NCBI GenBank assembly: GCA_964563755.1 | Contig: CAZLYC010000003.1 | Coordinates: forward strand, 73,831 to 137,830 | Source: an uncultured Methanosarcinales archaeon | GTDB lineage: Archaea > Nanobdellota > Nanobdellia > Woesearchaeales > UBA11576 | Length of the DNA stretch: 64,000 nt | Reading direction: 5' to 3' | Shown: piece by piece, positions 42,413-55,246 of the stretch | Numbering within the stretch: position 1 is the first letter of the stretch | Layout of the letters: each line of letters begins with the position of its first letter | Notes under the pieces: generated by a model | Seen by the model: only the letters and a program-made list of their open reading frames with translations | The model's database searches: none | Told to the model about the DNA's origin: nothing | Program-made: the position numbers and the translations under genes

Positions 42413-43408
42413 ATGAATATCCTGAAACTAGATACGAAAGATAAACGTATACTTCTTGAGCTAGACAGGAATTCAAGACAACCCATCTCCACAATAGCGA
42501 AAAAAGTAGGTCTTTCTAAAGAGGTAGTCAACTACAGGATAAAGAGACTAATCGAGAAAGGGATAATAAAAGGATTCCACGCAGTCATCGACACCTCGAA
42601 GATAGGCTACATAATCTACAGGCTATACATAAAATTCCAGAACGTCACGCCGGAAAAAGAGAAAGAGATAACAGAATACTTCAAGAACCACGACCGCGTA
42701 GGCTGGGTGGCGTCATACGAAGGATTCTACGACCTCGCAATATTATTCTGGGCCAAAGACATCTACGAATTCCGCGAGATATACGACAAAGTCCTAAGCG
42801 ACCACGGAAAATTCTTCCAGGAGCACCTGATGAGCGTAGTCATATCGATATATCACTTCAAGCACAACTACCTCTTCGACTCAAAAGACTATTCTGAAGC
42901 AGTCATCGGCGGAAGGAAAGACATCGCAGACCTCGACTCGCTTGACATAGACATACTCAAGATACTCGCAGAAGACGGACGCAAGACCACTCTTGAGATA
43001 AGCAAGAAGGTAGGGGCTTCACCCAACACGATAAAGTACAGGATAAAGAAACTGCTCGACACGAAAGTCATCGTCGCGTTCAACACGATGATAGACACGT
43101 CTGTCCTCGGTTACCAGCACTACAAAGTATTCCTGGAACTGCAGAACATGGACAAGCAGATAAGGACAAAGATCATAGAATTCCTAAGGCTCAACAAGAA
43201 CACCATCTATGTCACGGACGCGATAGGAATAGCCGACCTCGAATTCGAGATGCAAGTCAGGAGCAGCATAGAGCTCCACAACACCCTGCGCGAGCTCCGC
43301 GCCATGTTCCCTGAACTGATACGCGACTGCAAGCCAAGCCTAGTCTTCAAGGAGCACAGGATAAATTACTTGCCTTTCCCTAACGGAGAGAAGAGCTCAT
43401 CAAAGTAA
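42413..43408 (+). CDS. Tandem (double) Lrp/AsnC-type regulator
   Basis: 331 aa with two HTH+RAM units. GGGGTGG RBS. Paralog of 31530-32528. Confidence 0.8.
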   Translation: MNILKLDTKDKRILLELDRNSRQPISTIAKKVGLSKEVVNYRIKRLIEKGIIKGFHAVIDTSKIGYIIYRLYIKFQNVTPEKEKEITEYFKNHDRVGWVASYEGFYDLAILFWAKDIYEFREIYDKVLSDHGKFFQEHLMSVVISIYHFKHNYLFDSKDYSEAVIGGRKDIADLDSLDIDILKILAEDGRKTTLEISKKVGASPNTIKYRIKKLLDTKVIVAFNTMIDTSVLGYQHYKVFLELQNMDKQIRTKIIEFLRLNKNTIYVTDAIGIADLEFEMQVRSSIELHNTLRELRAMFPELIRDCKPSLVFKEHRINYLPFPNGEKSSSK

Positions 43409-44955
43409 TCCTTGTTCCTGCAACCGACGCTTATGCGCATAGCATGACGTATCTCTTTCTGAGTAGGAGTGAGATTCCTCAACAACAAGTCTAACCTTTC
43501 AGTATTTCCGAACATGCTCCTGTATGAAGATGATAGTTCATCGAAACCTAACCCAATAGACGCCAATCTTGCCTCACGCATCTTATCCTCGTACTCCGGG
43601 CCATAGCTCTCTATGAAATTATACTTGACCTTACTCTCGACAAGAGGCTGCACACCTTTGTTCTCTATCGTGCCTATCAGGAAATCCTTTATAGGGCTGA
43701 ATCCCCTGTTTGTACTCGCAAGTTCGTCGAAAAGCATCAAGTAATACCGCCAGATAGGGATGGTATCTACCCTGCTCTGCATAATCTCACCGCTCTCACG
43801 GTCATTATGTATGAAACCCCAATATCCCAGCCAGGCATACATGTTAGAATGGTGCGCGTAAACATCAGCGTGACTCATCTCGTACACGCTTCTCCACTTA
43901 GAATCTTTCAGCTGGATGTGCAGGTCTCTTGGCAAGTTCGAAGTATCATCTACCATGAGACGCTCCATCTTCGAAAAACCTTTAGGAATAAACTCGAAGA
44001 TGAATTTCTCGCCATCCCTGCTAAGAGTAGGGAACCTAAGGTAATTCGCGGCGAAAGTCTTCGCCAGCCAGTCCCAAATGAACACTGCACCTCTGTCCGA
44101 AGATAAGTAGTTCAGGAAATGAAAAAGAGGCTGAGTATCTGTCACGTGGCAGAGCGAAGCGCCTGCAAGAATTGTATCAACAGACCCTTCGTACTCCCTC
44201 AGTATCGTGTTCCTGTCAAGGTCTGCGAAGTTCAGGTTGACTGTCCTCACAAGCTTAGGAGGCTTGAACTTATTCCCGTGAAGGTGAGGCTCGGTCAGCA
44301 TCTGCTGGGCCCTGTAAGTCGCCTTGTTGTCCACGTCGATAAGAACCACGTTAAGATGATTATTATAATTCTTAGGTATAAGGCCGCGTTCAGATAGATC
44401 GTGCAGTTTAGACAGATGGCTGACAACTGTCGTCGCGAATGCGCCGCATCCAAGGTCCATTATCGTGTAATGATCATTCTTGACAGGGTCAGTCTTCCTC
44501 CTGATAACATCATAAAATGCCTTGACTATGTGCTTCTCCGAGAACTCTGCGAGGATCCTGTTCATAAGCACAGTTATCTCAGTGGATTCCTCTATCTTGT
44601 CCTTTATCTGCTGCTGACTCTCCTCGCTTTTCCACTCCGAGGAATAAGAGCCGGTTCCTATAAGCGCGACAACCTTCTTGAGAAGCCGTATGTTGTCCAT
44701 GTATGATTCGTTCGGCATCATGGGAACATCTTTTGATACCATCTCCTCGAGCTTATTGAAGTCTATCCAGCAATCATGATAGTCTGCGGATATCCTCGCA
44801 AGAAGACCTGTCTGGGATGCTGGCCATGACCTCTCGCTGAAGCTATATGGATCAAGACATCCCCTGTAGCGACGCCTGACATTGAAATTGCTATCTACAA
44901 TAGTGTCCAATATCTGGCGTTCCAGCCCTTCAAGTCCCTTAAGTTCTACTACCAT
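43366..44955 (-). CDS. Class I SAM-dependent methyltransferase-fold protein with large N- and C-terminal extensions
   Basis: Motif I IMDLGCGAF, acidic beta2 end VVLIDVD, DTILAGASLCHV. No (D/N/S)PP(Y/F) motif. ATG 44955 follows GGTGGGGAGGG. Confidence 0.65.
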   Translation of the reverse strand: MVVELKGLEGLERQILDTIVDSNFNVRRRYRGCLDPYSFSERSWPASQTGLLARISADYHDCWIDFNKLEEMVSKDVPMMPNESYMDNIRLLKKVVALIGTGSYSSEWKSEESQQQIKDKIEESTEITVLMNRILAEFSEKHIVKAFYDVIRRKTDPVKNDHYTIMDLGCGAFATTVVSHLSKLHDLSERGLIPKNYNNHLNVVLIDVDNKATYRAQQMLTEPHLHGNKFKPPKLVRTVNLNFADLDRNTILREYEGSVDTILAGASLCHVTDTQPLFHFLNYLSSDRGAVFIWDWLAKTFAANYLRFPTLSRDGEKFIFEFIPKGFSKMERLMVDDTSNLPRDLHIQLKDSKWRSVYEMSHADVYAHHSNMYAWLGYWGFIHNDRESGEIMQSRVDTIPIWRYYLMLFDELASTNRGFSPIKDFLIGTIENKGVQPLVESKVKYNFIESYGPEYEDKMREARLASIGLGFDELSSSYRSMFGNTERLDLLLRNLTPTQKEIRHAMRISVGCRNKDYFDELFSPLGKGK

Positions 44956-44971
44956 CCATTCCCTCCCCACC

Positions 44972-44981
44972 TTAAGCGAGG
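44972..44981 (-). promoter_or_regulatory. Leader-motif variant CCTCGCTTAA directly after TTTAAATA
   Basis: The minus strand reads tttttttttaaataagCCTCGCTTAAggtggggagggaatggATG. Confidence 0.4.
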
Positions 44982-44997
44982 CTTATTTAAAAAAAAA

Positions 44998-47418
44998 TCA
45001 ACCCTTTTTCAGACGCTCGTAATCCGGGGTAAGCAACACCATCAAAGTGTTGTCATCCTTGCCTTTCTGTATCAGATCAAAATTCAACCCCTTGTTCCTG
45101 AAAGAGCGGAGCAATGCCTTCGACAAGATCCTGCTCTCTCCGCACCTGACTATCTGATGCCTCTTCAATTCCATCTTGCCTCCTAGTATGGGAGCGGGCC
45201 TAAGAGCCACAAAATAGAACTCGACCTTATCCTTTGTCTCAGGACGTAACGCAGCATACGTCGAGTAAGCGTCATTGCCGAACGGTGTCCTCGGTATACG
45301 CTGCGTGCTTGTCCTGTCATAGCATATGACATCTTTGTCTATCTCAAGACGCCTAAGCATATAATTGACATGCATATCCTCTGCCTTCCTGTCCCAGTAA
45401 TACTTCATGTTGTTCTGCTTCACGCCCTCTATCAATATCATGGCGTCCCTCTTCTCTTTATCATGATGCTGGACGCAGATATCTACGAGCGAGTCTATCA
45501 ATGAATCAGAACCGGTCTCAAGATTGAAGTATGTCCTTCCGAACATAGTAATGATAAGCTGCCTCTGAATCGCAGCGAAGTCATCATAGTTCAGTTTCCT
45601 GATATCCTTCCTCTTCAATGAAGCAAGCAGCATGTTGCTGTTGCAGTTCCTTGCCGCCCTGTGAAGCATAGTATCATTTATGTCATACAGACAAAGCCAG
45701 ACGTCCAAAGGAGTCCCGTTCGAAACTGAATATTTCTTCTTTATCTCCTCGGAAAGCACAAGTTCCGGAAGAGCGTCGCCGCAAGCGAGACCTGCAAGGG
45801 CCACCTTCCTGTCATGAAGAAGGTTTCTATCCATAAGGCGATTGGATATCGCTTTCATAAGTTCCTTGTCTATACGCTGTTCGGCATCAGCTTCGTCGTT
45901 AAGGTTCATATAGCTGTCTGCAGATTCGCTCCATCTGTACCACGCGTCATTGTCCTCACCTATATCTATCATGTAAGGGTAAACCTTGATATCATACATA
46001 TCCTGATAGAATTTTACCACGTGAAGAGGCACACGCAGCTCATGCATCCTGCTCGTCTTTATCCTCTTTATGAGCTTATTCCTGTCATCCCTTATCTTAG
46101 TGTTCTGCTTGTATGAATAAGTGACCATGTCCTCGTAAAGCCTCTCTTCGAAAGGAGTCAGCTTATCCCCTTTCCTCTTCTTGAGATGCGCATCAGCAAA
46201 GACTATCAGGTCGAGAGAACTGTATCTTCCAGGCAAGTCCCTCAATGGGTTTATCAAAATCTCAAAATATTTTGCCTCCCTATCGCTTATCTCCTTCAGC
46301 TTCTCTGAGCAGTCCAATATGCAAAGATTCGCGTCGAATACAGCGTCCTGGAACTTAGGAAGAAGCTTCTTTACGTCGTCTATCCTGACCTGTATAGCGC
46401 CCCTGCTTTCGCTGTCCATCAGGACCTTCAGCAGCTCATTGTAGCCGTTTATGTAACGCTCTGCATGGTCCTCTGTGAATCTCGCAGCGAATATGCCTGA
46501 AAGGTCTGCAGAAGAGTATTTCTTCCCGCCATCCCCTTTCAGAAGTATCGAAATCCTATAAACTAGCTTGCTCAGCTCTTCAGCATAGCTCTTGTTATTT
46601 ATGCCTGAAACACCCTGCTTTATGAATCCCATCGCGTAGTCCAGGAAAGAGAAAATCTTCGGAGGTGTTGTCGACGGAAGCTTCATGATGTAACCATACA
46701 TCTTAGGAATCTCGTCAAGAGTATCCTTGCTGCTGAACTTATGGCACAGGCTAAATGCAGCAGGAGGTGTCTTCGCATCCGCATGGTAAAGGCCGTTGCA
46801 GATGTCCCTGACTTTCTCACCATACACCCGGCAGTTCGACTTCGCAAGATCATCCACCTTATGGAGGAAGAAAGAACGTGCCTTCTTAGTGAGCCTGTCA
46901 ATATGCTCAAGCGCAGGCAGTGAAATATCCATATCCTCTGCGAACTTCAAGCTTCCAGTGTAACCATCTCCCGGAAGCCATTTAGACCAGACATCAGTGT
47001 AAACAGAGACAGGAGCGTTCAAAGCTATCGCCTTGCCTAGCGTCTCGACAGCAAGCTCAAGCCTGCTCTTCCTTGTTGTCTGCGTAGGCGGCACATTCGG
47101 GTCGAAGGCATCTTTCTCTATTGCCTCATGAAGCAGGTCGAGCGCCTCAGACGGCACTTCAAGCCCGTCCACTTTGGGAAAAAGAGTCTTCTCGAAAACA
47201 AACGAGAGGTAAAGCGCATCCACCGCCTTCCAGCCTTTGTCATGCATGTGCATCAAAAGCTCTGAGTATTTAGGATTGGATACAGCGTGCTCAGCTATCA
47301 GCTCCTCGAGCTTCCTCTGCTGGGTGGTCATGTCCTCGAAACTTGCCAGACGTTTACTCTCACGTCTCTTGTAGAACTCTTTCTTTTTCCACCTGAACCA
47401 ATCAGTCAGCCAAGTCAT
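44998..47418 (-). CDS. Large hypothetical protein with C-terminal EgtD-like (Methyltransf_33) domain
   Basis: 806 aa. The C-terminal ~270 aa (VALAGLACGD..., IITMFGRTYFNLE, MILIEGVK, YYWDRKAEDMHVNYMLRRLE, VEFYFVALRP...RCGESRILSK) follow the order of EgtD-family motifs. The N-terminal ~530 aa are unassigned. Confidence 0.55.
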   Translation of the reverse strand: MTWLTDWFRWKKKEFYKRRESKRLASFEDMTTQQRKLEELIAEHAVSNPKYSELLMHMHDKGWKAVDALYLSFVFEKTLFPKVDGLEVPSEALDLLHEAIEKDAFDPNVPPTQTTRKSRLELAVETLGKAIALNAPVSVYTDVWSKWLPGDGYTGSLKFAEDMDISLPALEHIDRLTKKARSFFLHKVDDLAKSNCRVYGEKVRDICNGLYHADAKTPPAAFSLCHKFSSKDTLDEIPKMYGYIMKLPSTTPPKIFSFLDYAMGFIKQGVSGINNKSYAEELSKLVYRISILLKGDGGKKYSSADLSGIFAARFTEDHAERYINGYNELLKVLMDSESRGAIQVRIDDVKKLLPKFQDAVFDANLCILDCSEKLKEISDREAKYFEILINPLRDLPGRYSSLDLIVFADAHLKKRKGDKLTPFEERLYEDMVTYSYKQNTKIRDDRNKLIKRIKTSRMHELRVPLHVVKFYQDMYDIKVYPYMIDIGEDNDAWYRWSESADSYMNLNDEADAEQRIDKELMKAISNRLMDRNLLHDRKVALAGLACGDALPELVLSEEIKKKYSVSNGTPLDVWLCLYDINDTMLHRAARNCNSNMLLASLKRKDIRKLNYDDFAAIQRQLIITMFGRTYFNLETGSDSLIDSLVDICVQHHDKEKRDAMILIEGVKQNNMKYYWDRKAEDMHVNYMLRRLEIDKDVICYDRTSTQRIPRTPFGNDAYSTYAALRPETKDKVEFYFVALRPAPILGGKMELKRHQIVRCGESRILSKALLRSFRNKGLNFDLIQKGKDDNTLMVLLTPDYERLKKG

Positions 47419-47550
47419 ATTTGCACGCCCGGAAACTTCAAAATCACCCTGAAATCTTGGTAATATTTTGATTGAATGGACTGCAGGCTATCTGCCGCAA
47501 TCAAAAACCTCTTTTTCAAGGAAAGATTTCAATAAACAAACTAAGCTGCC

Positions 47551-48036
47551 TCAAAAGGCGACATCACTCACTCTCAACAGTCTCGTCGAATTATCAAGCG
47601 GGATCATGTCTATCTGCTCGTGGGCAAGCCATGCTGTCCCATGCTTCTTGTAGAACTCTGCATGCGCCTTCTTGAACTCCTCCGCATTGCGCCAGATAGA
47701 ACGTATGATGACCTTGCCGTCGTATGTCTCGTGGCAGTCAGTGCAGTTCTTCCAGTCACCCATCATGTTCTTTATTATGTTCCGTATCTCTATCACGTAT
47801 GGGCTCGATATATCTATCCTCTGCACCATCATTATGTTATAGCCTAGTGAAGAGAAATTCGGTATGTTAAGAGTATAGAATACATTGTCCTGCTTAAGCT
47901 TGTTATGCAGGCGCCTGACTGATACCTCATTAAGGTTGACCAGCTTCGCTATCTCCCTGAAACTATAATCCTTATTCTCCATCAGAAGCTGCAGAACCTT
48001 CCTCTCGTTGACCTTGAGTGAATTTTGATTCTCCAT
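47551..48036 (-). CDS. Lrp/AsnC-like regulator with conserved CxxCH motif
   Basis: 161 aa. HTH (YSFREIAKLVNLNEVSVRRLHNKL) and a RAM-like domain containing CTDCHETYDGK. Paralog of 49907-50437. Confidence 0.7.
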   Translation of the reverse strand: MENQNSLKVNERKVLQLLMENKDYSFREIAKLVNLNEVSVRRLHNKLKQDNVFYTLNIPNFSSLGYNIMMVQRIDISSPYVIEIRNIIKNMMGDWKNCTDCHETYDGKVIIRSIWRNAEEFKKAHAEFYKKHGTAWLAHEQIDMIPLDNSTRLLRVSDVAF

Positions 48037-48069
48037 GTCCCAACCCCGTAAATAATTATGGTTTTTAGA

Positions 48070-48077
48070 TTTATAAA
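48070..48077 (-). promoter_or_regulatory. Putative TATA box (AACCTTTATAAA on the minus strand) for 47551-48036
   Basis: Lies ~35 nt upstream of ATG 48036, within a T-rich (minus-strand) spacer that also follows the GGDEF-like gene. Confidence 0.45.
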
Positions 48078-48336
48078 GGTTTGTAATAAAAAGTACATTT
48101 TAACGCAAAAAATGCAACAAAACGTACATGCTGATAAAAAAACAGAACATTTCACGCCCTTCAACCGAAAAAAACAGCAGAAAAATCTTGCAGATAGATA
48201 AAAAAAATAAAAAAAAACCAAAACAGAACAAAATAAAACCAAAAAACGATGAAAGACGACAAACAGAACTCAGGGCACTATCGGAAACAACTACCCGAAA
48301 GGCAAATCAGAAAGGCAAATCAATTTCATTCAAAGT

Positions 48337-49041
48337 TCATTTCACCGACGGTGCTGCCTGCCTTGATGATTGTACATACCTCTCCTGCATACGCTTCCTG
48401 TTAAGTTCAAGCTGCGCAAGATACATTGCTTCAACATATCTCTTTGCTACGAGCTCCGCGTGCGCATGGTCACAGCTTATGTCAATTATGAACTCGTCAC
48501 CACCGCTGTCATTCTTCCTGTTAAGAAGAATATCTGTATTACGCACATTGTTGAACGGAGTCTCTATGCTCCTTATCTGCCTCTTAAGAGCCCTGCCCAT
48601 CACCTCAAGATACTCATCAGTCACCTCATAGCCAAGAAGAGTGTTTGCCTGTTTCATGTTATCCCCGTCGATGAGTATTATAAGACGATTATCATACTTG
48701 GACTCTTTCCTCAACTTAGCGACTTCCACCATATAACCCACTTTGTTGAGAAGACCCGTCTTAGGGTCCTGCTTAAGATTCTCAAGATCATCACGACCTT
48801 CCTTGTCATCCATCTGCGAAAGCTTATCCTCAAGACGGAGATAGCTCTGAACCGTCTTATTGGATGTCTCGACTTCATGCGCAAGAGGTTTCCCTGAATA
48901 ATGCTCGATATTGTATAGCCTGCCTTCGTGCTTGCGCTGCTTTGCCATCGCAAGACCTGCTTCAGCCTCCTCGATGTTACGGCCTATGCCTATGCTCACC
49001 TTTATCACTACCTGCTCAAGCGCAGAAGGAGAGAAGCTCAT
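48337..49041 (-). CDS. GGDEF-like (palm-fold nucleotide cyclase) protein, apparently circularly permuted
   Basis: 234 aa. DPKTGLLNK..., LIILIDGDNMKQAN, GYEVTDEYL and SGGDEFIIDI follow canonical GGDEF order. The usually C-terminal strand and helix (VIKVSIGIG...AEAGLAMAKQRKHEG) sit at the N-terminus. Confidence 0.7.
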   Translation of the reverse strand: MSFSPSALEQVVIKVSIGIGRNIEEAEAGLAMAKQRKHEGRLYNIEHYSGKPLAHEVETSNKTVQSYLRLEDKLSQMDDKEGRDDLENLKQDPKTGLLNKVGYMVEVAKLRKESKYDNRLIILIDGDNMKQANTLLGYEVTDEYLEVMGRALKRQIRSIETPFNNVRNTDILLNRKNDSGGDEFIIDISCDHAHAELVAKRYVEAMYLAQLELNRKRMQERYVQSSRQAAPSVK

Positions 49042-49562
49042 CTTCGCGCCTCCATATCTTCTCCAATATCATCGCCGAACTCGTATGAAGAAAGCAATCT
49101 TCGGTTAATCTCTCCTAGCTTCTTAAGTGAAGGATACATCCTCTTGACTATAGTATCATCGCTCCTTCCAAAATAGAAATCCATGCTTTTTGTTACCTTG
49201 TCAACTTCTTCGACAGACAACGCGTCCTCTATCGACCTGCAATAAGCAAACCCTCTTGTGACAGGATTCAATGCCTTGAACGGATCGTAATTGAAAAGAA
49301 GATTTGAGAATATTGCATCCGCTTCTGCGTGCCTTCCACAAGAATCCATAAGATAAGCCATGACCCAAGCGTCGTCTAGAAAACATAACCTATCATACGT
49401 GTTCGCAAGCCCGGGAGTTATGGTGTAAGACTTATTTTCAAGCACATCCAGTGCGCATTCTACCCTATAATCCTCACCAAAATTAACCTTGCTCCCGTCT
49501 ATCTTCCTTTCAAGAGCAGATATTATGTCTGTCTTAGGATCCTCTATTATTTCCAAAAGCAT
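49038..49562 (-). CDS. Hypothetical protein translationally coupled to the GGDEF-like gene
   Basis: 174-aa ORF. Its stop overlaps the downstream ATG (ATGA). GAGGGG RBS. No family recognised. Confidence 0.6.
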   Translation of the reverse strand: MLLEIIEDPKTDIISALERKIDGSKVNFGEDYRVECALDVLENKSYTITPGLANTYDRLCFLDDAWVMAYLMDSCGRHAEADAIFSNLLFNYDPFKALNPVTRGFAYCRSIEDALSVEEVDKVTKSMDFYFGRSDDTIVKRMYPSLKKLGEINRRLLSSYEFGDDIGEDMEARR

Positions 49563-49596
49563 GTCTGTCGCCCCTCATTTGAACCGAGAATCCCCC

Positions 49597-49625
49597 TTTA
49601 GCGAGGTAGAGGAACTCACGTCCTG
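49597..49625 (-). promoter_or_regulatory. Leader-motif copy: GGACGTGAG...ACCTCGCTAAAGG
   Basis: The minus strand reads ttttaatttttttatcaataacaGGACGTGAGttcctctaCCTCGCTAAAggggg, 35-44 nt upstream of ATG 49562. Confidence 0.5.
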
Positions 49626-49906
49626 TTATTGATAAAAAAATTAAAAGATTTGAAATCCGAAAACAAAAATCAAATCAAAAAAGCTCTCAACACCTTGATG
49701 CATAGCATAATCATGTTCAAACATCCCACCCCTCATGAAAATCTGCGGATTAGCTCATGTCGACGGCACACTTACCTTTAACGCGCACTATCCTCACATT
49801 GATGCTCTTCTCAGGCGTGCCTGAAAACCATATCTTCAGGTCGCCTAGCAAGTAGACCAGCCTCGCGTAAAGTATCAAGAGACCGATTCTTGCTCTCCGT
49901 TCCATC

Positions 49907-50437
49907 CTATTCTTCCACATCCTTGTTTTCCACATCATGTTCCCACAGGCTCCTTGGTTTTATCACGCTTCGCTGCGCGTTGAGAGGCACCATATCTACC
50001 TCCTCGCCTGCGAGCCACTCCTGGCCGTATTTCTGATGCAGCCTCGTCCGTGCGTTCTTGAAATCCTCAGCGCTTTTCCAGACGCTGCGCACGTATACCT
50101 TTCCGTCGAATGTTTCGTGACAATCAATACATGTACTCCACTCTGACTCTATCTTCGATATTACAGACGGCATCTCTGCCAAAGACTTGTTCTTTATCGT
50201 CAATTTCTGGACAATCATGACCTTGAACCCGAGCAAAGAGTAGTTCGGTACAATCATCTGCGAGCACAGGTTCTCTGAGAACAGCCTGTTGTACAGCCTC
50301 TTCGCAGTATTCTCGTCGGTGCCGACAGCCCTCGCTATCTCTCTTGGCGTGGCATTGACATTAGTCATTATGTAGCCCAATATCTTCTTCTCGATCACAT
50401 CGAGGTCATACGCAATTTCTGATTTCTCTCCATACAT
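49907..50437 (-). CDS. Lrp/AsnC-like regulator with conserved CxxCH motif
   Basis: 176 aa. HTH (ATPREIARAVGTDENTAKRLYNRL) and a RAM-like domain with CIDCHETFDGK. The start lies 1 nt after the upstream stop. Confidence 0.7.
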   Translation of the reverse strand: MYGEKSEIAYDLDVIEKKILGYIMTNVNATPREIARAVGTDENTAKRLYNRLFSENLCSQMIVPNYSLLGFKVMIVQKLTIKNKSLAEMPSVISKIESEWSTCIDCHETFDGKVYVRSVWKSAEDFKNARTRLHQKYGQEWLAGEEVDMVPLNAQRSVIKPRSLWEHDVENKDVEE

Positions 50438-50438
50438 A

Positions 50439-50747
50439 CTAACGCACCTTGGTTATGTTTCCGCTATTTCCGCAGTAATAGTAAAGGTTCAGCACTCCGC
50501 AATATCCGAGATAATTCCTCAGCCTCTCCAGCTGCTTTACCGCCTTCTCGTAATTTTCTGAGCTCTTGACCTCGTAGAGGTCCCATCCGTTCTCAGTGAT
50601 GCCGACAAGATCTATCTCGCCTATTGTCTGGCCTGTAGCAGTATCCCTCACTTCAACTTCTTTCATGGTCATGACATACTGCCTCTTCACCATATCCTCA
50701 AGCCTCTCGACGAATTCATGATGTTTGTCTTGCGGTCTTTTTGTCAT
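50439..50747 (-). CDS. Small PD-(D/E)xK-like (restriction-endonuclease-fold) protein
   Basis: 102 aa. GEIDLVGI...WDLYEVKSS fits the D...(D/E)xK pattern of Hjc/NucS-type minimal nucleases. Confidence 0.5.
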   Translation of the reverse strand: MTKRPQDKHHEFVERLEDMVKRQYVMTMKEVEVRDTATGQTIGEIDLVGITENGWDLYEVKSSENYEKAVKQLERLRNYLGYCGVLNLYYYCGNSGNITKVR

Positions 50748-50755
50748 ACTCCACC

Positions 50756-50764
50756 TTTAGCGAG
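50756..50764 (-). promoter_or_regulatory. Leader-motif copy ACTCGCTAAAGGTGGAGT immediately before the ATG
   Basis: The minus strand reads gatcaCTCGCTAAAggtggagtATG. Confidence 0.4.
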
Positions 50765-50786
50765 TGATCTGAACAATGGTTTCTTT

Positions 50787-51878
50787 TCAGGCGAAACCTA
50801 TCCTCTTCACCTTCTCCTCTCTTCCCTTGCAGCAATATCCCCTGATAGTGTCCTCTATCTGCGATTGGTAAATCAAGACCTCCTCTGCCTTGATATTCTC
50901 CTCGGCAGGCATATCGATGAATCTCCTTATCTGCCGTTCAGATGTTATCCTCAGCACCTCAGCTATGTCCGCTCCATTGACATCAGCAGCCTTCATCATC
51001 GACGCGAGCTTATTGTAATCCTCAATCTTGTAGATGGTGCGGCCTGCTCTCCTCTCAATATAGCCTGTCTGCTTCCTCAGTATATCCTCGACGCCATTAA
51101 GGTCAGGCTTCGGTATCTCTATCAGGTGATCGAACCTTCCTGCGCGCTTCACTGCCTCATCCATAAGCTCTATCTTGTTCGTCGCAGCTATGTATATCAG
51201 TCCTGACCCATCAGCCATGCCGTCCATGTACCTAAGCCATACATTCAGGCAGCGGTCCATGACACCCGTATCTCCTGAAGTGCCGCGCTTCTTGAACATC
51301 TGCTCTGCTTCGTCGACAAAAACGACAACTTTTTTCTCTGTCTCTTTATGTATCTGGTTGCATCTCTTCAGTATCTCTTCAAGAGTCCTCTCTGCCTCTC
51401 CGACCCATTTGCTAATTATCCTAGTCACAGGAACCTCAAGAAAGAAACTGTCGAGCTCATTTGAGATGGCTTTCGCCATCATGGTCTTGCCGCAACCGGG
51501 CGGACCATACAGAAGCAGTCCTCGCGGAGGACGTATCGCATACGCCTCATACATCTTCGGATACATTATCCCATAGTTGAAGAACTTTATCTTGTCGAGA
51601 ACAGGCTCGAGACCGCCGACATCAGAGAAACGTATATCCTCCTTGCACACAGTGAACTCCTTATCGAGATCCTCGACAGGCCTTGCATATTCCTTGATCT
51701 GTTTTTGAAGATGGTCTACTACATTATTTAGCTCCGCATTCTTCTGCTTAAGAGAGCTTATCAGTTCCATCTGCTTTATTATCGCGGAAAGCATAGCCTT
51801 CTTCTGCTCTTCCCACGCATGCTCCTTCCCAGGTTCTCCCTTATCAGGGTTTTCCGTCGGACCGCTCAATCCAGTCAT
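50787..51878 (-). CDS. Classic-clade AAA+ ATPase with N-terminal coiled coil
   Basis: 363 aa. Walker A GPPGCGKT, Walker B VVVFVDEAE, SRH ATNKIELMDEAVKRAGRFD. The start overlaps the upstream stop (ATGA). Confidence 0.85.
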   Translation of the reverse strand: MTGLSGPTENPDKGEPGKEHAWEEQKKAMLSAIIKQMELISSLKQKNAELNNVVDHLQKQIKEYARPVEDLDKEFTVCKEDIRFSDVGGLEPVLDKIKFFNYGIMYPKMYEAYAIRPPRGLLLYGPPGCGKTMMAKAISNELDSFFLEVPVTRIISKWVGEAERTLEEILKRCNQIHKETEKKVVVFVDEAEQMFKKRGTSGDTGVMDRCLNVWLRYMDGMADGSGLIYIAATNKIELMDEAVKRAGRFDHLIEIPKPDLNGVEDILRKQTGYIERRAGRTIYKIEDYNKLASMMKAADVNGADIAEVLRITSERQIRRFIDMPAEENIKAEEVLIYQSQIEDTIRGYCCKGREEKVKRIGFA

Positions 51879-54241
51879 TTCTTTTTCATCTCCTGTTCTG
51901 CCTTCTCATAAAGAGCGTTCCTGCCGATATCGTTCAAGCGACCTGAAGGGATTGCCTTCTCAGCAAAGTCCCCTTTCATAGGGATTATCAGGCAATGCGC
52001 TGCCTGAGTCCTAGGGACGGAACTGGCGTAATATTTCTCAGTGGGAGATACTGTCTGCAGGGTTGCAAGCTTGTACGCGACACTGAAACTGTTGTCGCCT
52101 GTCTTGTATATCTTCATCCAGTTATCATGAGTGTGACCGCCGAGAGCGAGGTCCGCATTCGAATTCTTGCCTGCGCCGACAAGACCTGTGAATCCAGAAC
52201 CCTTAGGGTCGTGCTGCACTACGAGATTTATAGGACCGAACATCTCCTTGCCTTCGGTATCGAGACCGTAATCAGGTATGTTCAATACTCTCGCATTGCT
52301 GTATCCGCCGAGAAACACCCTTGCGCCTTCGTTGTCCCTGACATAATCCGGCTTGCCCACTTCGTAGATACCTATGCCTTTGGATTTCATGCGCTGCGCG
52401 AAGAAGTCGCTCTCCCTGAATCCTGTATCCTTCAACACCTCATCAGCATGATTTCCTGTCGTAGATACATGAGCCCACTTGAGTCTGCTGTGCTCGAGAG
52501 TGCCCTTGAGGAAAGACTCATAATAATCAGCGACCCTCTCGAGTATGACTGCCATGCTCTCGACGCTTCCGCCTCTTGCGTCATTCGTCATCTTCATAGC
52601 GAGCTTTATCACATCTTCAACGCTCTCTGGCTTGAACTTCGAGAGGAGCTCTATGTTCTCCCTCATGACTTCCTGCGGGTCCCTCTTGTAGTGATACCTG
52701 TGGTCCCATTTCTTTGAGTTCGCTTCTGCAGCGTCGCCAGCGTCAATGAATCCTTTTGCAGCAGCGTTCCTTCCCCTGAAAGATTCCCCTCCGAGAAGCA
52801 GCTTGCTGTAAAGATGCATCCAGCCTTCTCTTGCAATCACATTCTCTTCAGGAGAACCTATATGCTCGTCAGAAGATGCACAGATTATCGAATATTCCTT
52901 AGGCTGGTTAAGAACAGATCCATCTGAGAAATTCTTGTATTGCACCCACTCTGTCCCGACTATCCCATCTGAATCCTTGGTTATAACAGTCAGCCCCGTC
53001 ACACCATCATGAGTATACCTGTCGACAGCCGCGTGCTTTCTTGTGTTGATAGGCTTTCCAGCGCTTATCCTCTCAGGCTCTTTTCCTGTGACAAACCTGC
53101 CTATCTTCTCCTGGTCCTCGAAAGGAAGCACCATGACGAGAGTTATTCCATCTCTTCCAATCTCAGGGTCATATACTGACTGATTCTTGAAGTTGGTCTC
53201 AGCAGGAGTATCACTCGTCTTCTGGAACTGCTTGTATCCTATTCCTGCGTGGCCGCTCTCGACTATAACATCAATCCCTTTTGAACATGAATCTTTCATC
53301 TGGTCGAAAAGCCTGCTCTGGTAGCGGTCCATCTTGCCGTGAGTCGATGATAGAAGAGCCCTGTCACGTCTCTTCATTACCGCCCATGTAGAGTGCCTGC
53401 TGTGCGCATAATCCACATTCAGGCTCTTGAAATTAAGTATTGACGGAGAAGTCACCAATTCTACACCTATCCTGTCGCACATATCCTTGTATCCCTTGTA
53501 CATCTCCGCGACAAACTCCTTTGTCAGGTATTGATGTGCAGGCCTCACTTTCTTCTCACGGTAAAGCTTGCCCTCATCTGTCTTCTCGCTTATCCTCTTA
53601 CCGAGCTGCTTGAGCTTTGACTTGCAAGAAGACATCCTCCTCTTCATCCCGCTCCTTATGCTCGCGGACTTCTTTGAATTTCCGAGCGCAGAATATTCCT
53701 TAGACAGGTGCTTATACTCTGTATTCAGCGTCTTCTGCTCGGTCTTGAGGCCCTTAAGTTCATCGATGATTTCCGTCTGCTTCCTTATGAGCATCTCATT
53801 GACCATCGCAGATATAGTATACTGCGTGTCATCAGAATCAAGAGAGAAGACAATCTTCGCATTCGGCATCCGCTGCTTGAGCTCCCTTAACCTCGTCTCA
53901 AGAATACTCATCTGTATCTGCATCATCGACATGTACTGGTTGCTGTTAGGTATGCTTTCAGTCGCTTCCCTGCACTGCTCTTCTGTCTTGTTCCAGTAAG
54001 TCAATTCGTCATTCAGGTACTCTGGCCTGTCAAGACGCGTGACAGCGCCATCCACTATTATCCCTGTGATATCCTTATCCTGAGACATGAACTTAAGCAA
54101 GTTCTCGTATGCCCCTTGGTTGAAGTATGCTGTATCATATCCTACCTCACTTAAGACGTAGACGCGAGAGCGCTCATGCTTCTGCACGATGCCCTCGAGC
54201 GTTGCTTCCTTGGTTTTAGCGAGTTTGGTTGCCTTGTTCAT
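51875..54241 (-). CDS. Tandem calcineurin-like metallophosphoesterase (degenerate N-module with coiled-coil insert + intact C-module)
   Basis: C-terminal half: SSDEHIG (DxH), DAGDAAE (GDxx), TGNHAD (GNH[DE]), VVQHDP, GGHTHD (GHxH). The N-terminal half has the same spacing but substituted ligands (VLSEVGYDT, VDGAVT, ESGHAG). ATG 54241 is preferred for its GAGGAT RBS; the ORF track extends to 54349. Confidence 0.7.
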   Translation of the reverse strand: MNKATKLAKTKEATLEGIVQKHERSRVYVLSEVGYDTAYFNQGAYENLLKFMSQDKDITGIIVDGAVTRLDRPEYLNDELTYWNKTEEQCREATESIPNSNQYMSMMQIQMSILETRLRELKQRMPNAKIVFSLDSDDTQYTISAMVNEMLIRKQTEIIDELKGLKTEQKTLNTEYKHLSKEYSALGNSKKSASIRSGMKRRMSSCKSKLKQLGKRISEKTDEGKLYREKKVRPAHQYLTKEFVAEMYKGYKDMCDRIGVELVTSPSILNFKSLNVDYAHSRHSTWAVMKRRDRALLSSTHGKMDRYQSRLFDQMKDSCSKGIDVIVESGHAGIGYKQFQKTSDTPAETNFKNQSVYDPEIGRDGITLVMVLPFEDQEKIGRFVTGKEPERISAGKPINTRKHAAVDRYTHDGVTGLTVITKDSDGIVGTEWVQYKNFSDGSVLNQPKEYSIICASSDEHIGSPEENVIAREGWMHLYSKLLLGGESFRGRNAAAKGFIDAGDAAEANSKKWDHRYHYKRDPQEVMRENIELLSKFKPESVEDVIKLAMKMTNDARGGSVESMAVILERVADYYESFLKGTLEHSRLKWAHVSTTGNHADEVLKDTGFRESDFFAQRMKSKGIGIYEVGKPDYVRDNEGARVFLGGYSNARVLNIPDYGLDTEGKEMFGPINLVVQHDPKGSGFTGLVGAGKNSNADLALGGHTHDNWMKIYKTGDNSFSVAYKLATLQTVSPTEKYYASSVPRTQAAHCLIIPMKGDFAEKAIPSGRLNDIGRNALYEKAEQEMKKK
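54215..54231 (-). promoter_or_regulatory. Leader-motif copy CAACCAAACTCGCTAAA inside the first codons of the phosphoesterase gene
   Basis: The minus strand reads ATGaacaaggCAACCAAACTCGCTAAAacc. Confidence 0.4.
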
Positions 54242-54364
54242 TTTAATCCTCAGCTCTTTTTTGTGAATATGGTGCAGGGACGGGAGATGTTTTCCGGGCG
54301 ATACTGTGGAGAATGTTTTGTTGAGTGCTCTCCCGTTCCCCGCGAACATGAAATTTTTGATCTA

Positions 54365-55246
54365 TCACCTCTTTGGCTTCTCCTTCTGAACATGATTTTC
54401 CAGCAGGCCATCAAAACTCTTTATCGGAGTCCCAAGCCCTAGAAGCGTGACATTGCTATCCTTGTAAGGCACTGTCTTTCCCAGGATGCCTGCCCAGTAA
54501 AGCTCTCCGCCACGCCTGACGAAATATGGACTGCCAGAATTCCCGAACGTTGAATTGATATCCAGCACGTCGATAGGTTCAGGAAGAAGAGCGACATAAT
54601 CAGGATGTGCTACACTGCCCTTGGTCACTACAGGCAGAAGCGACCTTGGATATCCGAAAAGAAATACCTCATCACCAGGCTGCAACGATATTTTCGTATC
54701 CCTGATGTAACTTTCTGAAGCGTAAAGCTGTTTATGTGCCTTGACTACAGCGACATCCTTATCTTCATCCTTCGCGACCTCATAGATAGGTATGTCATCG
54801 CTCTCATCCTCATCAAGCACGCAGCCAGATAATGATGTCTTCTCGCTGACCTTGATATACAGCTTGACATCCAAATCAGGAAGGCCGAACTCATCCTCAC
54901 CAAAATCCGCAGAACTTACAAACTCTTCATTCGACAACACGTGGACATTTGTGACTAGGTATGTGTCCCCTCCCTTGTATGCGTAAGCGAATGCTGTTCC
55001 GAACCCCGTGACTGTCCTCGTCGGTGAATCTGCAGCAGCTCCTATCTCCCTATATTCGCTCTTTGTCTTGACACAGTATACAGAATGAAGTATCTCGTCG
55101 AGAGTGCGTCTCACGTTCGCATCCCTTGTCTCGACCGCAGTTGTTATACCTGCATCATGCTTTTGCAGGTATGCACAGCCCGGTTGCGCGAATCCGACAG
55201 TCGCAGCCAACACCGCTGTGGCGATGGCTGATAAAGTCTTCTTCAT
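54365..55246 (-). CDS. Secreted trypsin-like (S1/DegP-type) serine protease, possible lipoprotein
   Basis: ATG 55246 with a GAGGT RBS. Signal peptide ending FAQPGC. Catalytic triad contexts TNVHV (His), DVAVVKA (Asp), GNSGSP (Ser). Confidence 0.75.
   Translation of the reverse strand: MKKTLSAIATAVLAATVGFAQPGCAYLQKHDAGITTAVETRDANVRRTLDEILHSVYCVKTKSEYREIGAAADSPTRTVTGFGTAFAYAYKGGDTYLVTNVHVLSNEEFVSSADFGEDEFGLPDLDVKLYIKVSEKTSLSGCVLDEDESDDIPIYEVAKDEDKDVAVVKAHKQLYASESYIRDTKISLQPGDEVFLFGYPRSLLPVVTKGSVAHPDYVALLPEPIDVLDINSTFGNSGSPYFVRRGGELYWAGILGKTVPYKDSNVTLLGLGTPIKSFDGLLENHVQKEKPKR

What the first reader, a model, noticed from the sequence alone, without database searches (positions are those of the whole stretch)
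43366..55246. Candidate undescribed system: co-directional cluster of a GGDEF-like cyclase, tandem phosphoesterase-AAA+ pair, mini-nuclease, two methyltransferase-fold giants, paired regulators and a protease
Ten minus-strand genes run without interruption, in this order:
- secreted trypsin-like protease, 54365-55246
- 788-aa tandem metallophosphoesterase, 51875-54241
- classic AAA+ ATPase, 50787-51878 (ATGA overlap with the phosphoesterase gene)
- PD-(D/E)xK-like protein, 50439-50747
- Lrp-like regulator, 49907-50437 (1-nt gap)
- unknown protein, 49038-49562
- GGDEF-like protein, 48337-49041 (ATGA overlap with the unknown)
- second Lrp-like regulator, 47551-48036
- 806-aa EgtD-like methyltransferase-fold protein, 44998-47418
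- 529-aa class I methyltransferase-fold protein, 43366-44955

Several of these genes carry the shared CTCGCTAAA leader motif. I do not recognise this combination as any described pathway or defence system.

GGDEF-type cyclases are generally regarded as rare or absent in Archaea. The metallophosphoesterase superfamily includes class III cyclic-nucleotide phosphodiesterases (CpdA/Rv0805), so a synthase/hydrolase pair for a nucleotide second messenger is plausible. The ATPase, nuclease-fold protein and methyltransferases could then act as effectors or modifiers.

The part list (methyltransferase + phosphoesterase + ATPase + protease) is only loosely analogous to BREX-like defence. No DNA-methyltransferase (D/N)PP(Y/F) motif is present, and the protease is exported.

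Codon usage follows the local strand bias, which argues for long residence rather than recent transfer.
Basis: inference. Interest (0 to 1): 0.75.

Follow-up and report, generated by a model that had tools for sequence, protein, structure and literature searches.

The report
Three gene modules, one odd cyclase
The ten genes are real and conserved side by side in related DPANN (Woesearchaeota-type) archaea, but they look like three separate modules rather than one system; the most unusual part is a small, apparently functional GGDEF cyclase whose domain is circularly permuted.

Summary
All ten minus-strand ORFs exist as described, and most domain calls hold. Trypsin-like protease, AAA+ and GGDEF pass Pfam. 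The ~790-aa protein has no Pfam hit, but it has all five metallophosphoesterase (MPE) motifs and a confident MPE-fold model. The mini-nuclease and the two methyltransferase calls rest on weak hits and motifs.

Gene order is conserved in about ten related MAGs, but so are flanking housekeeping genes such as ribosomal protein S3Ae. Comparison across about 45 loci splits the run into three modules:
- **A:** lipoprotein protease, MPE, Cdc48-D2-like AAA+, mini PD-(D/E)xK and a wHTH regulator. MPE, protease and AAA stay linked through rearrangements down to ~45% identity.
- **B:** an operon (unknown protein, transglutaminase, TldD/PmbA or others) that ends optionally in GGDEF. The window has lost its middle genes.
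- **C:** a wHTH paralogue and two large methyltransferase-like proteins.

GGDEF is absent from three syntenic loci. In one of those MAGs it lies on another contig. More distant family members never sit near MPE. A dedicated GGDEF/MPE synthase–hydrolase pair is therefore not supported.

The GGDEF family (at least 40 clusters at 50% identity) is circularly permuted and keeps its catalytic residues. The shared leader motif is real but also precedes S3Ae.

The parts
54365..55246 (-). Module A: exported lipoprotein-type trypsin-like serine protease (293 aa)
   Evidence: Pfam Trypsin_2, E=1e-8. Signal peptide plus lipobox Cys in all 22 family members examined. Found next to the MPE gene in about 16 of 20 informative loci, sometimes in 2-3 copies.
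51875..54241 (-). Module A: two-domain metallophosphoesterase (788 aa). Canonical C-terminal MPE domain; N-terminal MPE-like domain with a ~120-aa coiled-coil insertion.
   Evidence: No Pfam hit. Invariant D458xH460, G502D503, G596N597H598, H677 and H703xH705. AF2 pLDDT 87, pTM 0.86. Foldseek hits: PolD DP1, YydB, Mre11, LpxH and phage DP1-like proteins. 81 homologue clusters, all annotated as hypothetical.
50787..51878 (-). Module A: single-domain classic AAA+ ATPase (Cdc48/VAT D2-like) with an N-terminal coiled coil. ATGA-coupled to the MPE gene.
   Evidence: PF00004, E=3e-32. NCBIfam CDC48/PAN/CdvC subfamily-level hits. PDB VAT/Cdc48 D2, E~1e-82. Adjacent to MPE in about 14 of 18 informative loci, including rearranged ones.
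50439..50747 (-). Module A: 102-aa PD-(D/E)xK-like mini-nuclease
   Evidence: Weak Cas4/NucS and CARF_PDDEXK hits. Invariant E44, D46, E59-x-K61 and Q72 in 6 orthologues. No PDB sequence match.
49907..50437 (-). Module A: Lrp-like wHTH regulator (paralogue 1)
   Evidence: HTH_24 and HTH_AsnC-type. 39% identical to the paralogue at 47551-48036. Follows the mini-nuclease in relatives.
49586..49617 (-). Leader hairpin with CTCGCTAAA in its loop, between a TATA-like box and the start of the 'unknown' gene
   Evidence: Predicted hairpin of -12 kcal/mol. Equivalent hairpins precede the first gene of the same operon in 7 relatives, with modest z-scores.
49038..49562 (-). Module B, first gene: conserved unknown protein (174 aa, a short form)
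   Evidence: No family hits. Orthologues precede the transglutaminase-like gene in L001, L002, L005, L007 and L010, and sit next to MPE in L018 and L023.
48337..49041 (-). Module B, last gene: stand-alone, circularly permuted GGDEF-domain nucleotide cyclase (234 aa)
   Evidence: PF00990 above its cut-off. AF2 pLDDT 87; the top 41 PDB fold hits are all diguanylate cyclases. Permutation. Catalytic residues invariant.
47551..48036 (-). Module C: Lrp-like wHTH regulator (paralogue 2)
   Evidence: HTH_24; NCBIfam LrpA, E=5e-6. Always immediately upstream of the 806-aa homologue.
44998..47418 (-). Module C: 806-aa protein with a helical N-terminal region and a diverged class I methyltransferase-like C-terminal domain
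   Evidence: Only weak Methyltransf_25/31 hits, best 3e-4 among 11 homologues. Conserved GLACGDA, LDLYD and FN motifs. PDB profile hit to a SAM methyltransferase at E=0.3.
43366..44955 (-). Module C: 529-aa protein with a central class I methyltransferase-like domain
   Evidence: Invariant D167xGxG171 and D207. Weak Methyltransf_23/31 hits and PDB methyltransferase hits at E~0.01-0.07.
42413..43408 (+). Divergently oriented double AsnC/Lrp-type regulator, conserved next to module C
   Evidence: 42-74% identical orthologues in the same position.
50756..50764 (-). CTCGCTAAA immediately followed by GGTGG and the mini-nuclease start (Shine-Dalgarno-like context)
55279..55287 (-). CTCGCTAAA in the protease leader, preceded by CAACCAAAC
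   Evidence: Same arrangement in L010.
54215..54223 (-). CTCGCTAAA at codons 7-9 of the MPE ORF (just upstream of the MPE start in L005)

Best explanation
The 12-kb run is a vertically inherited, lineage-specific block of a Woesearchaeota-type (DPANN) chromosome. It strings together three gene modules that evolve separately, so it is not one system.

Module A (54.4-55.2 kb down to 49.9 kb):
- An exported lipoprotein trypsin-like protease.
- A cytoplasmic two-domain metallophosphoesterase. Its C-terminal domain has a complete catalytic motif set and a DP1/Mre11-like fold.
- A translationally coupled single-ring Cdc48-D2-like AAA+ ATPase, then a mini PD-(D/E)xK nuclease and a wHTH regulator.
- Inferred role: an ATP-driven phosphodiester-cleaving machine, most likely acting on nucleic acids, that is a stable part of this lineage's gene set.

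Module B:
- This is the remnant of an operon that in relatives reads unknown protein, transglutaminase-like protein, then TldD/PmbA x2 or other genes, then GGDEF.
- The window has lost the middle genes, which leaves the unknown gene ATGA-coupled to GGDEF.
- The GGDEF protein is a stand-alone, circularly permuted but catalytically intact cyclase. It is predicted to dimerise through its stalk helices and to make c-di-GMP or a close relative from GTP.
- It is an optional last gene of that operon and occurs in unrelated contexts elsewhere.

Module C: a wHTH paralogue plus two large proteins with diverged class I methyltransferase domains, substrate unknown.

Shown here: gene content, folds, motif conservation, the permutation, and the co-occurrence pattern. 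Inferred: every biochemical activity.
For: Synteny extends beyond the cluster. It includes a giant surface protein, SpoIIM, AsnC and ribosomal protein S3Ae, which points to general colinearity in this lineage.

Module A is linked across rearrangements:
- L019 reads MPE, protease x3, AAA. L021 reads MPE ... protease, AAA. L022 reads protease, AAA, MPE.
- L014, L015 and L017 have trypsin-like proteases next to MPE.

GGDEF behaves as a separable gene:
- It is absent from L010, L016 and L026 although the region is covered.
- In the MAG of L010 it sits on another contig.
- More distant permuted GGDEFs lie in unrelated contexts.
- Module B is variable: TldD x2, a 126-195-aa protein or an SPFH protein comes before GGDEF.
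- The window has no transglutaminase or TldD gene anywhere.
- Unrelated genes are inserted between modules B and C in L002 and L008.

Other points:
- MPE fold and motifs.
- GGDEF fold, permutation and catalytic residues.
- No viral relatives of MPE or GGDEF were found.
- No defence-system model matches beyond generic AAA and protease hits.
Against: - In the close clade, modules A, B and C are adjacent in at least five genomes. When GGDEF is present it always lies between the two wHTH paralogues.
- In L023 (47% MPE identity), A-type genes and C-type genes (an 888-aa protein plus a 529-aa-protein homologue, and the double Lrp) are still within about 20 kb despite rearrangement.
- Homologues of the 'unknown' gene sit beside MPE in L018 and L023. 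The A/B boundary is therefore not clean.
- Many contigs are short, so some absences are uninformative.
- Metallophosphoesterases can hydrolyse cyclic nucleotides, so fold alone cannot exclude a phosphodiesterase role.
- No biochemical activity has been tested.
Confidence: 0.6

Rival explanations
1. All ten genes form one nucleotide second-messenger system: GGDEF synthesises the signal, the MPE degrades it, and the AAA+, nuclease, methyltransferases and protease act as effectors or modifiers.
For: The genes are contiguous and co-directional. The same order recurs in L005, L007 and L029, and partly in L002. GGDEF appears catalytically intact. The MPE superfamily does include cyclic-nucleotide phosphodiesterases (established knowledge).
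Against: - MPE and AAA occur without GGDEF in most loci.
- GGDEF occurs without MPE.
- Family sizes are 81 against 18 clusters.
- MPE fold neighbours are nucleases and LpxH, not CpdA/Rv0805.
- The protease is exported.
- There are at least three or four transcription units, with gaps of 300-345 nt.
- No recognised sensor domain (CARF, SAVED, PilZ) turned up in the ten proteins.
Confidence: 0.08
2. Modules A and C together form one undescribed nucleic-acid-directed system for defence or repair. It would comprise an MPE nuclease, an AAA+ motor, a PD-(D/E)xK nuclease and two methyltransferase-like modifiers under paired wHTH regulators. Module B, including GGDEF, would be a passenger inserted between them.
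For: - A and C are adjacent wherever both are covered in the close clade, including loci that lack GGDEF (L016, L026).
- They remain near each other in the rearranged L023.
- One wHTH paralogue sits in each module.
- Nuclease plus ATPase plus methyltransferase is a typical defence or repair parts list (established knowledge).
Against: - More distant MPE loci (L019, L021, L022, L024, L025, L027) have no homologues of the 806-aa or 529-aa proteins within 10 kb.
- L001 has module C without module A immediately upstream of module B.
- There is no DNA-methyltransferase motif.
- The block occupies a fixed chromosomal position flanked by housekeeping genes and has no viral or mobile signatures, unlike typical defence islands.
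- PADLOC has no match for the MPE or the methyltransferase-like proteins.
Confidence: 0.2
3. The run is pure inherited gene order. The ten genes are functionally unrelated lineage-specific genes, and even the protease-MPE-AAA adjacency has no functional meaning.
For: Colinearity extends more than 30 kb and includes S3Ae, SpoIIM and a giant surface protein. The protease is extracellular while MPE and AAA are cytoplasmic.
Against: - MPE, AAA and the protease stay within about 5 kb of each other through several independent rearrangements and copy-number changes, down to ~45% identity.
- The ATGA coupling of MPE and AAA is seen in the window and in L007.
Confidence: 0.1

Closest known systems
Bacterial diguanylate cyclases (GGDEF domain, PF00990; e.g. 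PleD, WspR, SiaD, SadC)
   Same: - Pfam hit above the curated cut-off.
- All 41 best PDB fold matches are GGDEF cyclase domains, with rmsd 2.6-3 A over about 120 residues.
- GGDEF signature; the metal-binding Asp D125; K130, N133 and D142, which correspond to the GTP-contacting residues; and the Lys of the 'AK' helix are conserved.
- An RxxD motif lies upstream of GGDEF in the close clade.
   Different: - The domain is circularly permuted. The canonical last strand-helix-strand (SxGxA ... AxxAK) is at the N-terminus, followed by stalk helices and then the rest of the domain.
- There is no sensor domain.
- Four extra residues (KNDS) lie between the conserved Arg and GGDEF.
- The host is archaeal (DPANN).
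- No EAL, HD-GYP or PilZ partner was seen among the cluster genes; the rest of the window was not scanned.
- The product has not been tested.
Calcineurin-like metallophosphoesterase nucleases (PolD small subunit DP1, Mre11/SbcD; also YydB, LpxH)
   Same: The five MPE motifs are invariant in the C-terminal domain. The best fold matches are DP1 (6hms_A, E=5.7e-4; phage DP1-like proteins, E=1.9e-6), YydB, Mre11 and LpxH. The gene partners with an ATPase.
   Different: - No Pfam Metallophos or DNA_pol_E_B hit.
- Two-domain architecture with a ~120-aa coiled-coil hairpin inserted in the N-terminal domain.
- The partner is a classic AAA+ ATPase, not an SMC/Rad50-type ABC ATPase.
- TM-scores are low (0.2-0.5), so the resemblance is only at fold level.
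Class III cyclic-nucleotide phosphodiesterases (CpdA, Rv0805)
   Same: Same superfamily and the same metal-binding motif set (established knowledge).
   Different: None appears among the top 50 fold matches. The protein is about three times larger. Its distribution does not track the cyclase.
AAA+ ATPase plus protease defence pairs (IetAS), and Cdc48/VAT unfoldases
   Same: The AAA+ matches IetA models (E=3e-31) and Cdc48/VAT D2. A serine protease gene lies nearby.
   Different: The IetA hit reflects shared classic-AAA ancestry. The protease here is trypsin-like rather than subtilisin-like and is an exported lipoprotein. The block is chromosomal and vertically inherited.
BREX-like systems
   Same: A loosely similar parts list: methyltransferase-like protein, phosphoesterase, ATPase, protease.
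   Different: No PADLOC BREX component is matched. There is no NPPY/DPPY motif. The phosphoesterase is MPE-type, not PglZ alkaline-phosphatase-type. The protease is exported.

Membership tests
GGDEF diguanylate cyclase domain (PF00990) | Significant match to the family profile | tested here: met
   33.7 bits against a gathering score of 23.8. TIGR00254, E=1.6e-8. hhalign against a canonical GGDEF profile, E=3e-31.
GGDEF diguanylate cyclase domain (PF00990) | GG(D/E)EF active-site hairpin plus metal- and GTP-binding residues | tested here: met
   G181-D-E-F184, D125, N133 and K34 are invariant even at 28% identity. D142 is invariant in the close clade and variable further out.
GGDEF diguanylate cyclase domain (PF00990) | Canonical order of secondary-structure elements (alpha0-beta1-alpha1-alpha2-beta2-beta3-alpha3-beta4-alpha4-beta5) | tested here: not met
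   The beta4-alpha4-beta5 equivalents are at residues 15-47, ahead of alpha0. A re-permuted profile aligns over 150 columns (score 181) against 110 columns (score 162) in the native order. The Pfam score rises from 33.7 to 39.7 bits after re-permutation. One test, HMMER best-domain scores, showed no gain.
GGDEF diguanylate cyclase domain (PF00990) | Synthesis of c-di-GMP from GTP | not testable with these tools
   Needs an enzyme assay.
Calcineurin-like metallophosphoesterase superfamily | Motifs DxH / GD / GNH(D/E) / H / GHxH | tested here: met
   D458, H460, G502, D503, G596, N597, H598, H677, H703 and H705 are invariant in 40 sequences. This applies to the C-terminal domain only.
Calcineurin-like metallophosphoesterase superfamily | MPE beta-sandwich fold | tested here: met
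   AF2 pLDDT 87. Foldseek probabilities of 0.9-1.0 to DP1, Mre11, LpxH and phage DP1-like proteins.
Calcineurin-like metallophosphoesterase superfamily | Second (N-terminal) MPE domain, i.e. the 'tandem' architecture | tested here: inconclusive
   hhalign of the N-half against the C-half shows no similarity. Invariant D36, D64, D137/138, H280 and H331 follow beta-strands in the order of motifs I-V.
Class III cNMP phosphodiesterase (CpdA/Rv0805) | Closest structural or sequence neighbours are class III phosphodiesterases | tested here: not met
   None in the top 50 PDB fold hits. No sequence hit in PDB or in Pfam/NCBIfam.
Class III cNMP phosphodiesterase (CpdA/Rv0805) | Hydrolysis of cyclic (di)nucleotides | not testable with these tools
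   Needs an enzyme assay.
Classic-clade AAA+ ATPase | PF00004 match with the Walker A GPPGCGKT motif | tested here: met
   E=3e-32. VAT/Cdc48 D2, E~1e-82. The sequence shows GPPGCGKT.
PD-(D/E)xK nuclease fold | D ... (D/E)xK catalytic motif conserved across the family | tested here: met
   D46 and E59-V-K61 are invariant in 6 orthologues.
PD-(D/E)xK nuclease fold | Significant profile or structure match | tested here: inconclusive
   Cas4 E=0.044, NucS_C E=0.048, PADLOC CARF_PDDEXK E=1.3e-4. No PDB hit. No structure was predicted.
Class I SAM-dependent methyltransferases (806-aa and 529-aa proteins) | Motif I (D/E-x-G-x-G) and a significant profile match | tested here: inconclusive
   529-aa protein: invariant DxGxG, but Pfam E=0.04 and PDB E~0.01-0.07. 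806-aa protein: GLACGDA motif, best member E=3e-4, all below the cut-offs. The suggested EgtD-like subfamily was not tested.
Known anti-phage defence systems (PADLOC: BREX, Iet, CBASS and others) | Matches to the system-specific components | tested here: not met
   Only generic AAA (IetA, TRIP13) and trypsin-fold hits. Nothing for the MPE, GGDEF or the 806/529-aa proteins.

The most novel reading that the evidence does not exclude
The circularly permuted GGDEF protein is an active cyclase that gives Woesearchaeota a c-di-GMP-type (or other dinucleotide) second messenger. In this clade its operon has been wired to the neighbouring MPE-AAA+-mini-nuclease module. The MPE would then act either as the messenger's phosphodiesterase or as a messenger-controlled nuclease. 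That would make this an archaeal signalling or defence circuit with no described counterpart.
Probability: 0.1. Interest if true: 0.8.

Novelty: new variant of a known kind. Interest (0 to 1): 0.5.

Why it matters
**Archaeal GGDEF.** Whether Archaea use GGDEF-type second messengers at all is unsettled.
- Reviews describe GGDEF as almost absent from Archaea, or as needing confirmation on archaeal contigs (PMC5847659, PMC10086821). One study noted unverified BLAST hits in DPANN and Asgard archaea (PMC8646023).
- Here a GGDEF gene is anchored in archaeal synteny, about 7 kb from ribosomal protein S3Ae. It is conserved in about ten independent MAGs and keeps its catalytic residues.
- It also belongs to a family of at least 40 clusters at 50% identity with a circularly permuted domain. 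I found no description of that architecture in the searchable literature.
- At 234 aa and soluble, the protein offers a direct test for c-di-GMP synthesis in Archaea.

**MPE module.** The protease-MPE-AAA+ module is a widespread and wholly unannotated Woesearchaeota gene set, with 81 MPE clusters all labelled hypothetical. A high-confidence structural model now suggests a nuclease-like machine.

**Method.** A tidy co-directional gene run in a streamlined genome can be inherited gene order rather than a system.

Tried and rejected
1. PDB sequence and profile searches gave no usable hits for the MPE, the 806-aa protein, the 529-aa protein or the mini-nuclease. Single-sequence phmmer of native and re-permuted GGDEF against PDB was too weak to be informative.
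2. A HMMER best-domain comparison of native-order and re-permuted GGDEF profiles on 108 canonical GGDEFs showed no gain. HMMER's local alignments stop at the family-specific insertion. The more sensitive hhalign comparison did show the expected gain.
3. hhalign of the N-half against the C-half of the MPE found no similarity, so a tandem duplication cannot be claimed from sequence.
4. hhalign of the 806-aa family against the 529-aa family gave only E=0.08 over motifs I-II.
5. Viral-contig scans for MPE and GGDEF relatives found nothing, so a viral or mobile origin was set aside.
6. Rfam searches of the whole window and of the S3Ae upstream element found nothing.
7. The homologue search for the 806-aa protein returned only 3 proteins because of the candidate cap.
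8. BREX, Iet and CBASS-like readings were rejected on the PADLOC results and the absence of the relevant motifs.

Full report
**1. Observation**

The ten minus-strand ORFs are present at the stated coordinates. The 4-nt ATGA overlaps MPE/AAA and unknown/GGDEF are confirmed, as is the 1-nt gap between the mini-nuclease and the first regulator. Gaps of 345 nt (49563-49906), 300 nt (48037-48336) and 132 nt (47419-47550) break the run into at least three or four transcription units. G+C content (0.43-0.49) matches the rest of the window.

**2. What each gene is**

- **Protease.** It matches Trypsin_2 (E=1e-8). Every member of its family starts with a signal peptide ending in a lipobox-like Cys, so it is an exported lipoprotein.
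- **788/824-aa protein.** It has no Pfam, NCBIfam, PHROG or PADLOC hit.
  - 81 full-length homologue clusters exist, nearly all in Woesearchaeota/Nanoarchaeota-labelled MAGs, and all are annotated as hypothetical.
  - In 40 of them, DxH, GD, GNH, H and GHxH are invariant in the C-terminal half.
  - An AlphaFold2 model built from this alignment is confident (pLDDT 87, pTM 0.86).
  - Its fold neighbours are PolD small subunit DP1, YydB, Mre11, LpxH and polymerase B-subunits in the PDB, and phage 'DNA polymerase II small subunit' proteins in BFVD (E=1.9e-6). Class III cNMP phosphodiesterases are not among the top hits.
  - The N-terminal half carries a ~120-residue coiled-coil hairpin (H137-258).
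  - It also has invariant Asp/His residues directly after beta-strands in the order of motifs I-V. Even so, it has no detectable profile similarity to the C-half, so 'tandem MPE' remains plausible but unproven.
- **AAA+.** It is a single-domain classic AAA ATPase, closest to VAT/Cdc48 D2.
- **102-aa protein.** It has only weak nuclease-family hits, but an invariant E..D..ExK..Q pattern.
- **Two regulators.** They are 39% identical wHTH paralogues.
- **806-aa and 529-aa proteins.** Both show recurrent but sub-threshold class I methyltransferase signals, with motif I conserved. Neither has a DNA-methyltransferase (D/N)PP(Y/F) motif.
- **174-aa protein.** It matches nothing.

**3. The GGDEF protein**

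- **It is a real GGDEF domain.** It passes Pfam's GGDEF cut-off and contains a literal GGDEF.
- **Sequence order.** The most conserved stretch of its family is N-terminal: VVIKVSIGIGRN-AEAE--L--AK-RK. This corresponds to the canonical C-terminal strand and helix of GGDEF domains (SxGxA ... ADxAxYxAK).
- **Evidence for a circular permutation:**
  - A PDB profile search aligns family positions 96-179 to residues 2-88 of 3icl, and positions 13-40 to residues 115-152 of the same chain.
  - Moving residues 8-52 behind residue 218 raises the Pfam score from 33.7 to 39.7 bits. It also extends profile coverage from positions 3-74 to 3-133.
  - hhalign of the re-permuted family profile against a canonical GGDEF profile gives one colinear alignment of 150 columns (score 181, E=3e-31). 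The native order gives 110 columns (score 162).
  - The AF2 model (pLDDT 87, pTM 0.82) has strand-helix-strand at residues 15-47, then stalk helices, then alpha0-beta1-alpha1-alpha2-beta2-beta3-alpha3.
  - All 41 best PDB fold matches are diguanylate cyclase domains. They align over only the ~120 sequential residues, at 2.6-3 A rmsd.
  - One cruder HMMER test showed no gain.
- **Catalytic residues.** The metal-binding Asp (D125), K130, N133, GDEF and the 'AK' lysine are invariant down to 28% identity. D142 and an upstream RxxD are conserved in the close clade.
- **Family size.**
  - An exhaustive HMMER search of 1.84 billion cluster representatives found 81 hits at E<=1e-10.
  - 40 of the best 149 representatives are colinear, full-length proteins of 200-280 aa, that is, members of the permuted family.
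  - Short relatives in the canonical order also exist (P0146, P0175, P0234).
- **Literature.** I found no paper describing a permuted GGDEF.

**4. Comparative genomics**

I fetched neighbourhoods of GGDEF homologues. I also fetched 21 genome loci holding MPE homologues and 46 metagenome loci holding GGDEF homologues. I mapped the window's proteins and de novo ORF clusters onto them.

In a clade with 53-64% MPE identity the conserved order is:
- giant CBM96/Ig surface protein, small protein, SpoIIM
- protease, MPE, AAA, (small protein), mini-nuclease, wHTH
- (unknown protein), transglutaminase-like protein, [TldD/PmbA x2, or a 126-195-aa protein, or an SPFH protein], (GGDEF)
- variable inserts
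- wHTH, 806-aa homologue, 529-aa homologue
- double Lrp (opposite strand), AsnC, small ORF, ribosomal protein S3Ae

The colinearity therefore reaches well beyond the ten genes and includes housekeeping genes.

Four observations split the run:
- **(a) MPE, AAA and protease stay together.** This holds through rearrangements and copy-number changes in loci with 45-57% MPE identity (L019, L021, L022, L023, and L014/15/17/18 for the protease).
- **(b) GGDEF is optional.**
  - It is absent from the covered syntenic slot in L010, L016 and L026.
  - The MAG of L010 carries its permuted GGDEF on another contig, beside unrelated genes.
  - L001 has modules B and C without module A immediately upstream.
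- **(c) Distant permuted GGDEFs are never near the cluster genes.** No permuted GGDEF at 47% identity or less lies near MPE, AAA, the protease or the 806/529-aa homologues. Each subgroup has its own context.
- **(d) Unrelated genes separate GGDEF from the methyltransferase module.** In L002 and L008 these include a sulfotransferase, TrmB, a deaminase, CSD and Imm5-like genes.

The window itself lacks the transglutaminase and TldD genes altogether. The ATGA coupling of the 174-aa gene to GGDEF therefore looks like the product of a deletion inside the ancestral operon.

**5. Interpretation**

The data fit a composite block of three modules. The GGDEF/MPE synthase-hydrolase pairing is not supported.

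The best-supported functional unit is MPE plus AAA+, with the mini-nuclease, a wHTH regulator and the neighbouring exported protease(s). From its fold neighbours and its partners I infer an ATP-dependent phosphodiesterase or nuclease machine that is a stable part of the lineage's gene set. This step is inference only.

GGDEF is best read as a general stand-alone cyclase of these archaea. In this clade it rides at the end of a peptidase-type operon.

Residual evidence for wider coupling keeps a combined A+C system alive as a rival at about 0.2:
- A, B and C are adjacent in at least five genomes.
- A-type and C-type genes remain near each other in L023.
- Homologues of the unknown gene sit beside MPE in L018 and L023.

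**6. The shared leader motif**

CTCGCTAAA is enriched: 5 occurrences against 0.6 expected, all on the minus strand. It recurs at homologous places in relatives.

It is not specific to this cluster. It appears in three forms:
- As CTCGCTAAAGGTG, 1-10 nt before start codons, in a Shine-Dalgarno-like context.
- As the loop of a conserved hairpin (GGAUUCCUC / GGGGAAUUC) in the leader of the unknown/transglutaminase operon. Predicted stabilities are -7 to -12 kcal/mol with modest z-scores.
- As the 3' part of a ~50-nt element conserved upstream of the S3Ae promoter.

Rfam has no match. The motif looks like a lineage-wide expression signal rather than a mark of one regulon.

**7. Novelty and significance**

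No described system matches the cluster. The components are diverged variants of known enzyme families.

The literature treats archaeal GGDEF as nearly absent or unconfirmed (PMC5847659, PMC10086821), with unverified BLAST hits noted in DPANN and Asgard archaea (PMC8646023). A GGDEF gene firmly embedded in archaeal synteny, catalytically intact and circularly permuted, is the most interesting element here, and it can be tested directly by an enzyme assay.

As proposed, the ten-gene 'system' is not supported.

Noticed in passing
window 41350-41410 (-); L001 17745-17800, L005 18410-18470, L007 17975-18030: A ~50-nt element, GGAGAC-N4-GTCTCC-ACCCCAACCAAACCTCGCTAAAGGTAGAT, is almost invariant in four genomes whose proteins are only ~55-60% identical. 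It lies between the stop codon of a small conserved ORF and the TATA-like box of ribosomal protein S3Ae. It has no Rfam match. It could be a terminator/operator or a small RNA end.
   Followed up: partly
window 50756-50768 (-) and many sites in L001, L002, L005, L007: CTCGCTAAAGGTG often sits 1-10 nt before start codons. This suggests an unusually long Shine-Dalgarno-like signal, possibly complementary to a lineage-specific 16S rRNA 3' tail. No 16S rRNA gene was found in the window to check this.
   Followed up: no
window 57820-64000 (+), runs off the window end: A giant ORF of more than 2060 aa with CBM96 and bacterial Ig-like domains, probably a surface protein. It is conserved at the same position in L009, L010, L012, L016 and L026. 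It is preceded by a SpoIIM-like membrane protein gene (56152-56988, +).
   Followed up: partly
L003 10001-11450 / L036 (Ga0172381_10000253); L031, L032, L037, L038: In another lineage, permuted GGDEF genes occur as tandem paralogue pairs with SAGDEF/ATGDEF variants. They lie beside an F420-ligase-like gene, an FAD protein and a weakly DHH-like protein. DHH phosphoesterases degrade cyclic dinucleotides and pGpG in bacteria, so this may be a more relevant turnover partner than the MPE.
   Followed up: no
P0146, P0175, P0234: These are short stand-alone GGDEF proteins (~210-260 aa) in the canonical order that score highly against the permuted-family profile. They may be relatives of the form that existed before the permutation.
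   Followed up: no
window 49038-49562 versus L001/L005/L010 orthologues: The window's 174-aa unknown protein lacks the ~80-aa C-terminal region of the 250-268-aa orthologues (L007 has a similar short form). The transglutaminase-like and TldD/PmbA genes that follow it in relatives are absent from the whole 64-kb window. This is consistent with a deletion that joined it to GGDEF.
   Followed up: yes
L014 3847-4800, L015, L021 8762-9724, L022 5973-6875; L030 8961-9863; window 18742-19698 (-): A ~300-aa protein with an AbrB/MazE-like N-terminus lies next to MPE in four distant loci, and next to the relocated GGDEF in L030. The window has a homologue ~30 kb away.
   Followed up: no
L015, L016, L020, L024, L026 (labelled 'uncultured Methanosarcinales'); L025, L027, L028 (labelled Patescibacteria/Magasanikiibacteriota): Several contigs carrying the Woesearchaeota-type MPE gene are filed under unrelated taxa in public MAG records. 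This is probably mis-binning or mislabelling.
   Followed up: no
window 31530-32528 (-) and 41697-42185 (-): A second double-Lrp paralogue (29% identical to the one at 42413-43408) and a classic AsnC-type regulator lie in the same window. Lrp/AsnC-type regulators are strikingly dense in this part of the window.
   Followed up: no
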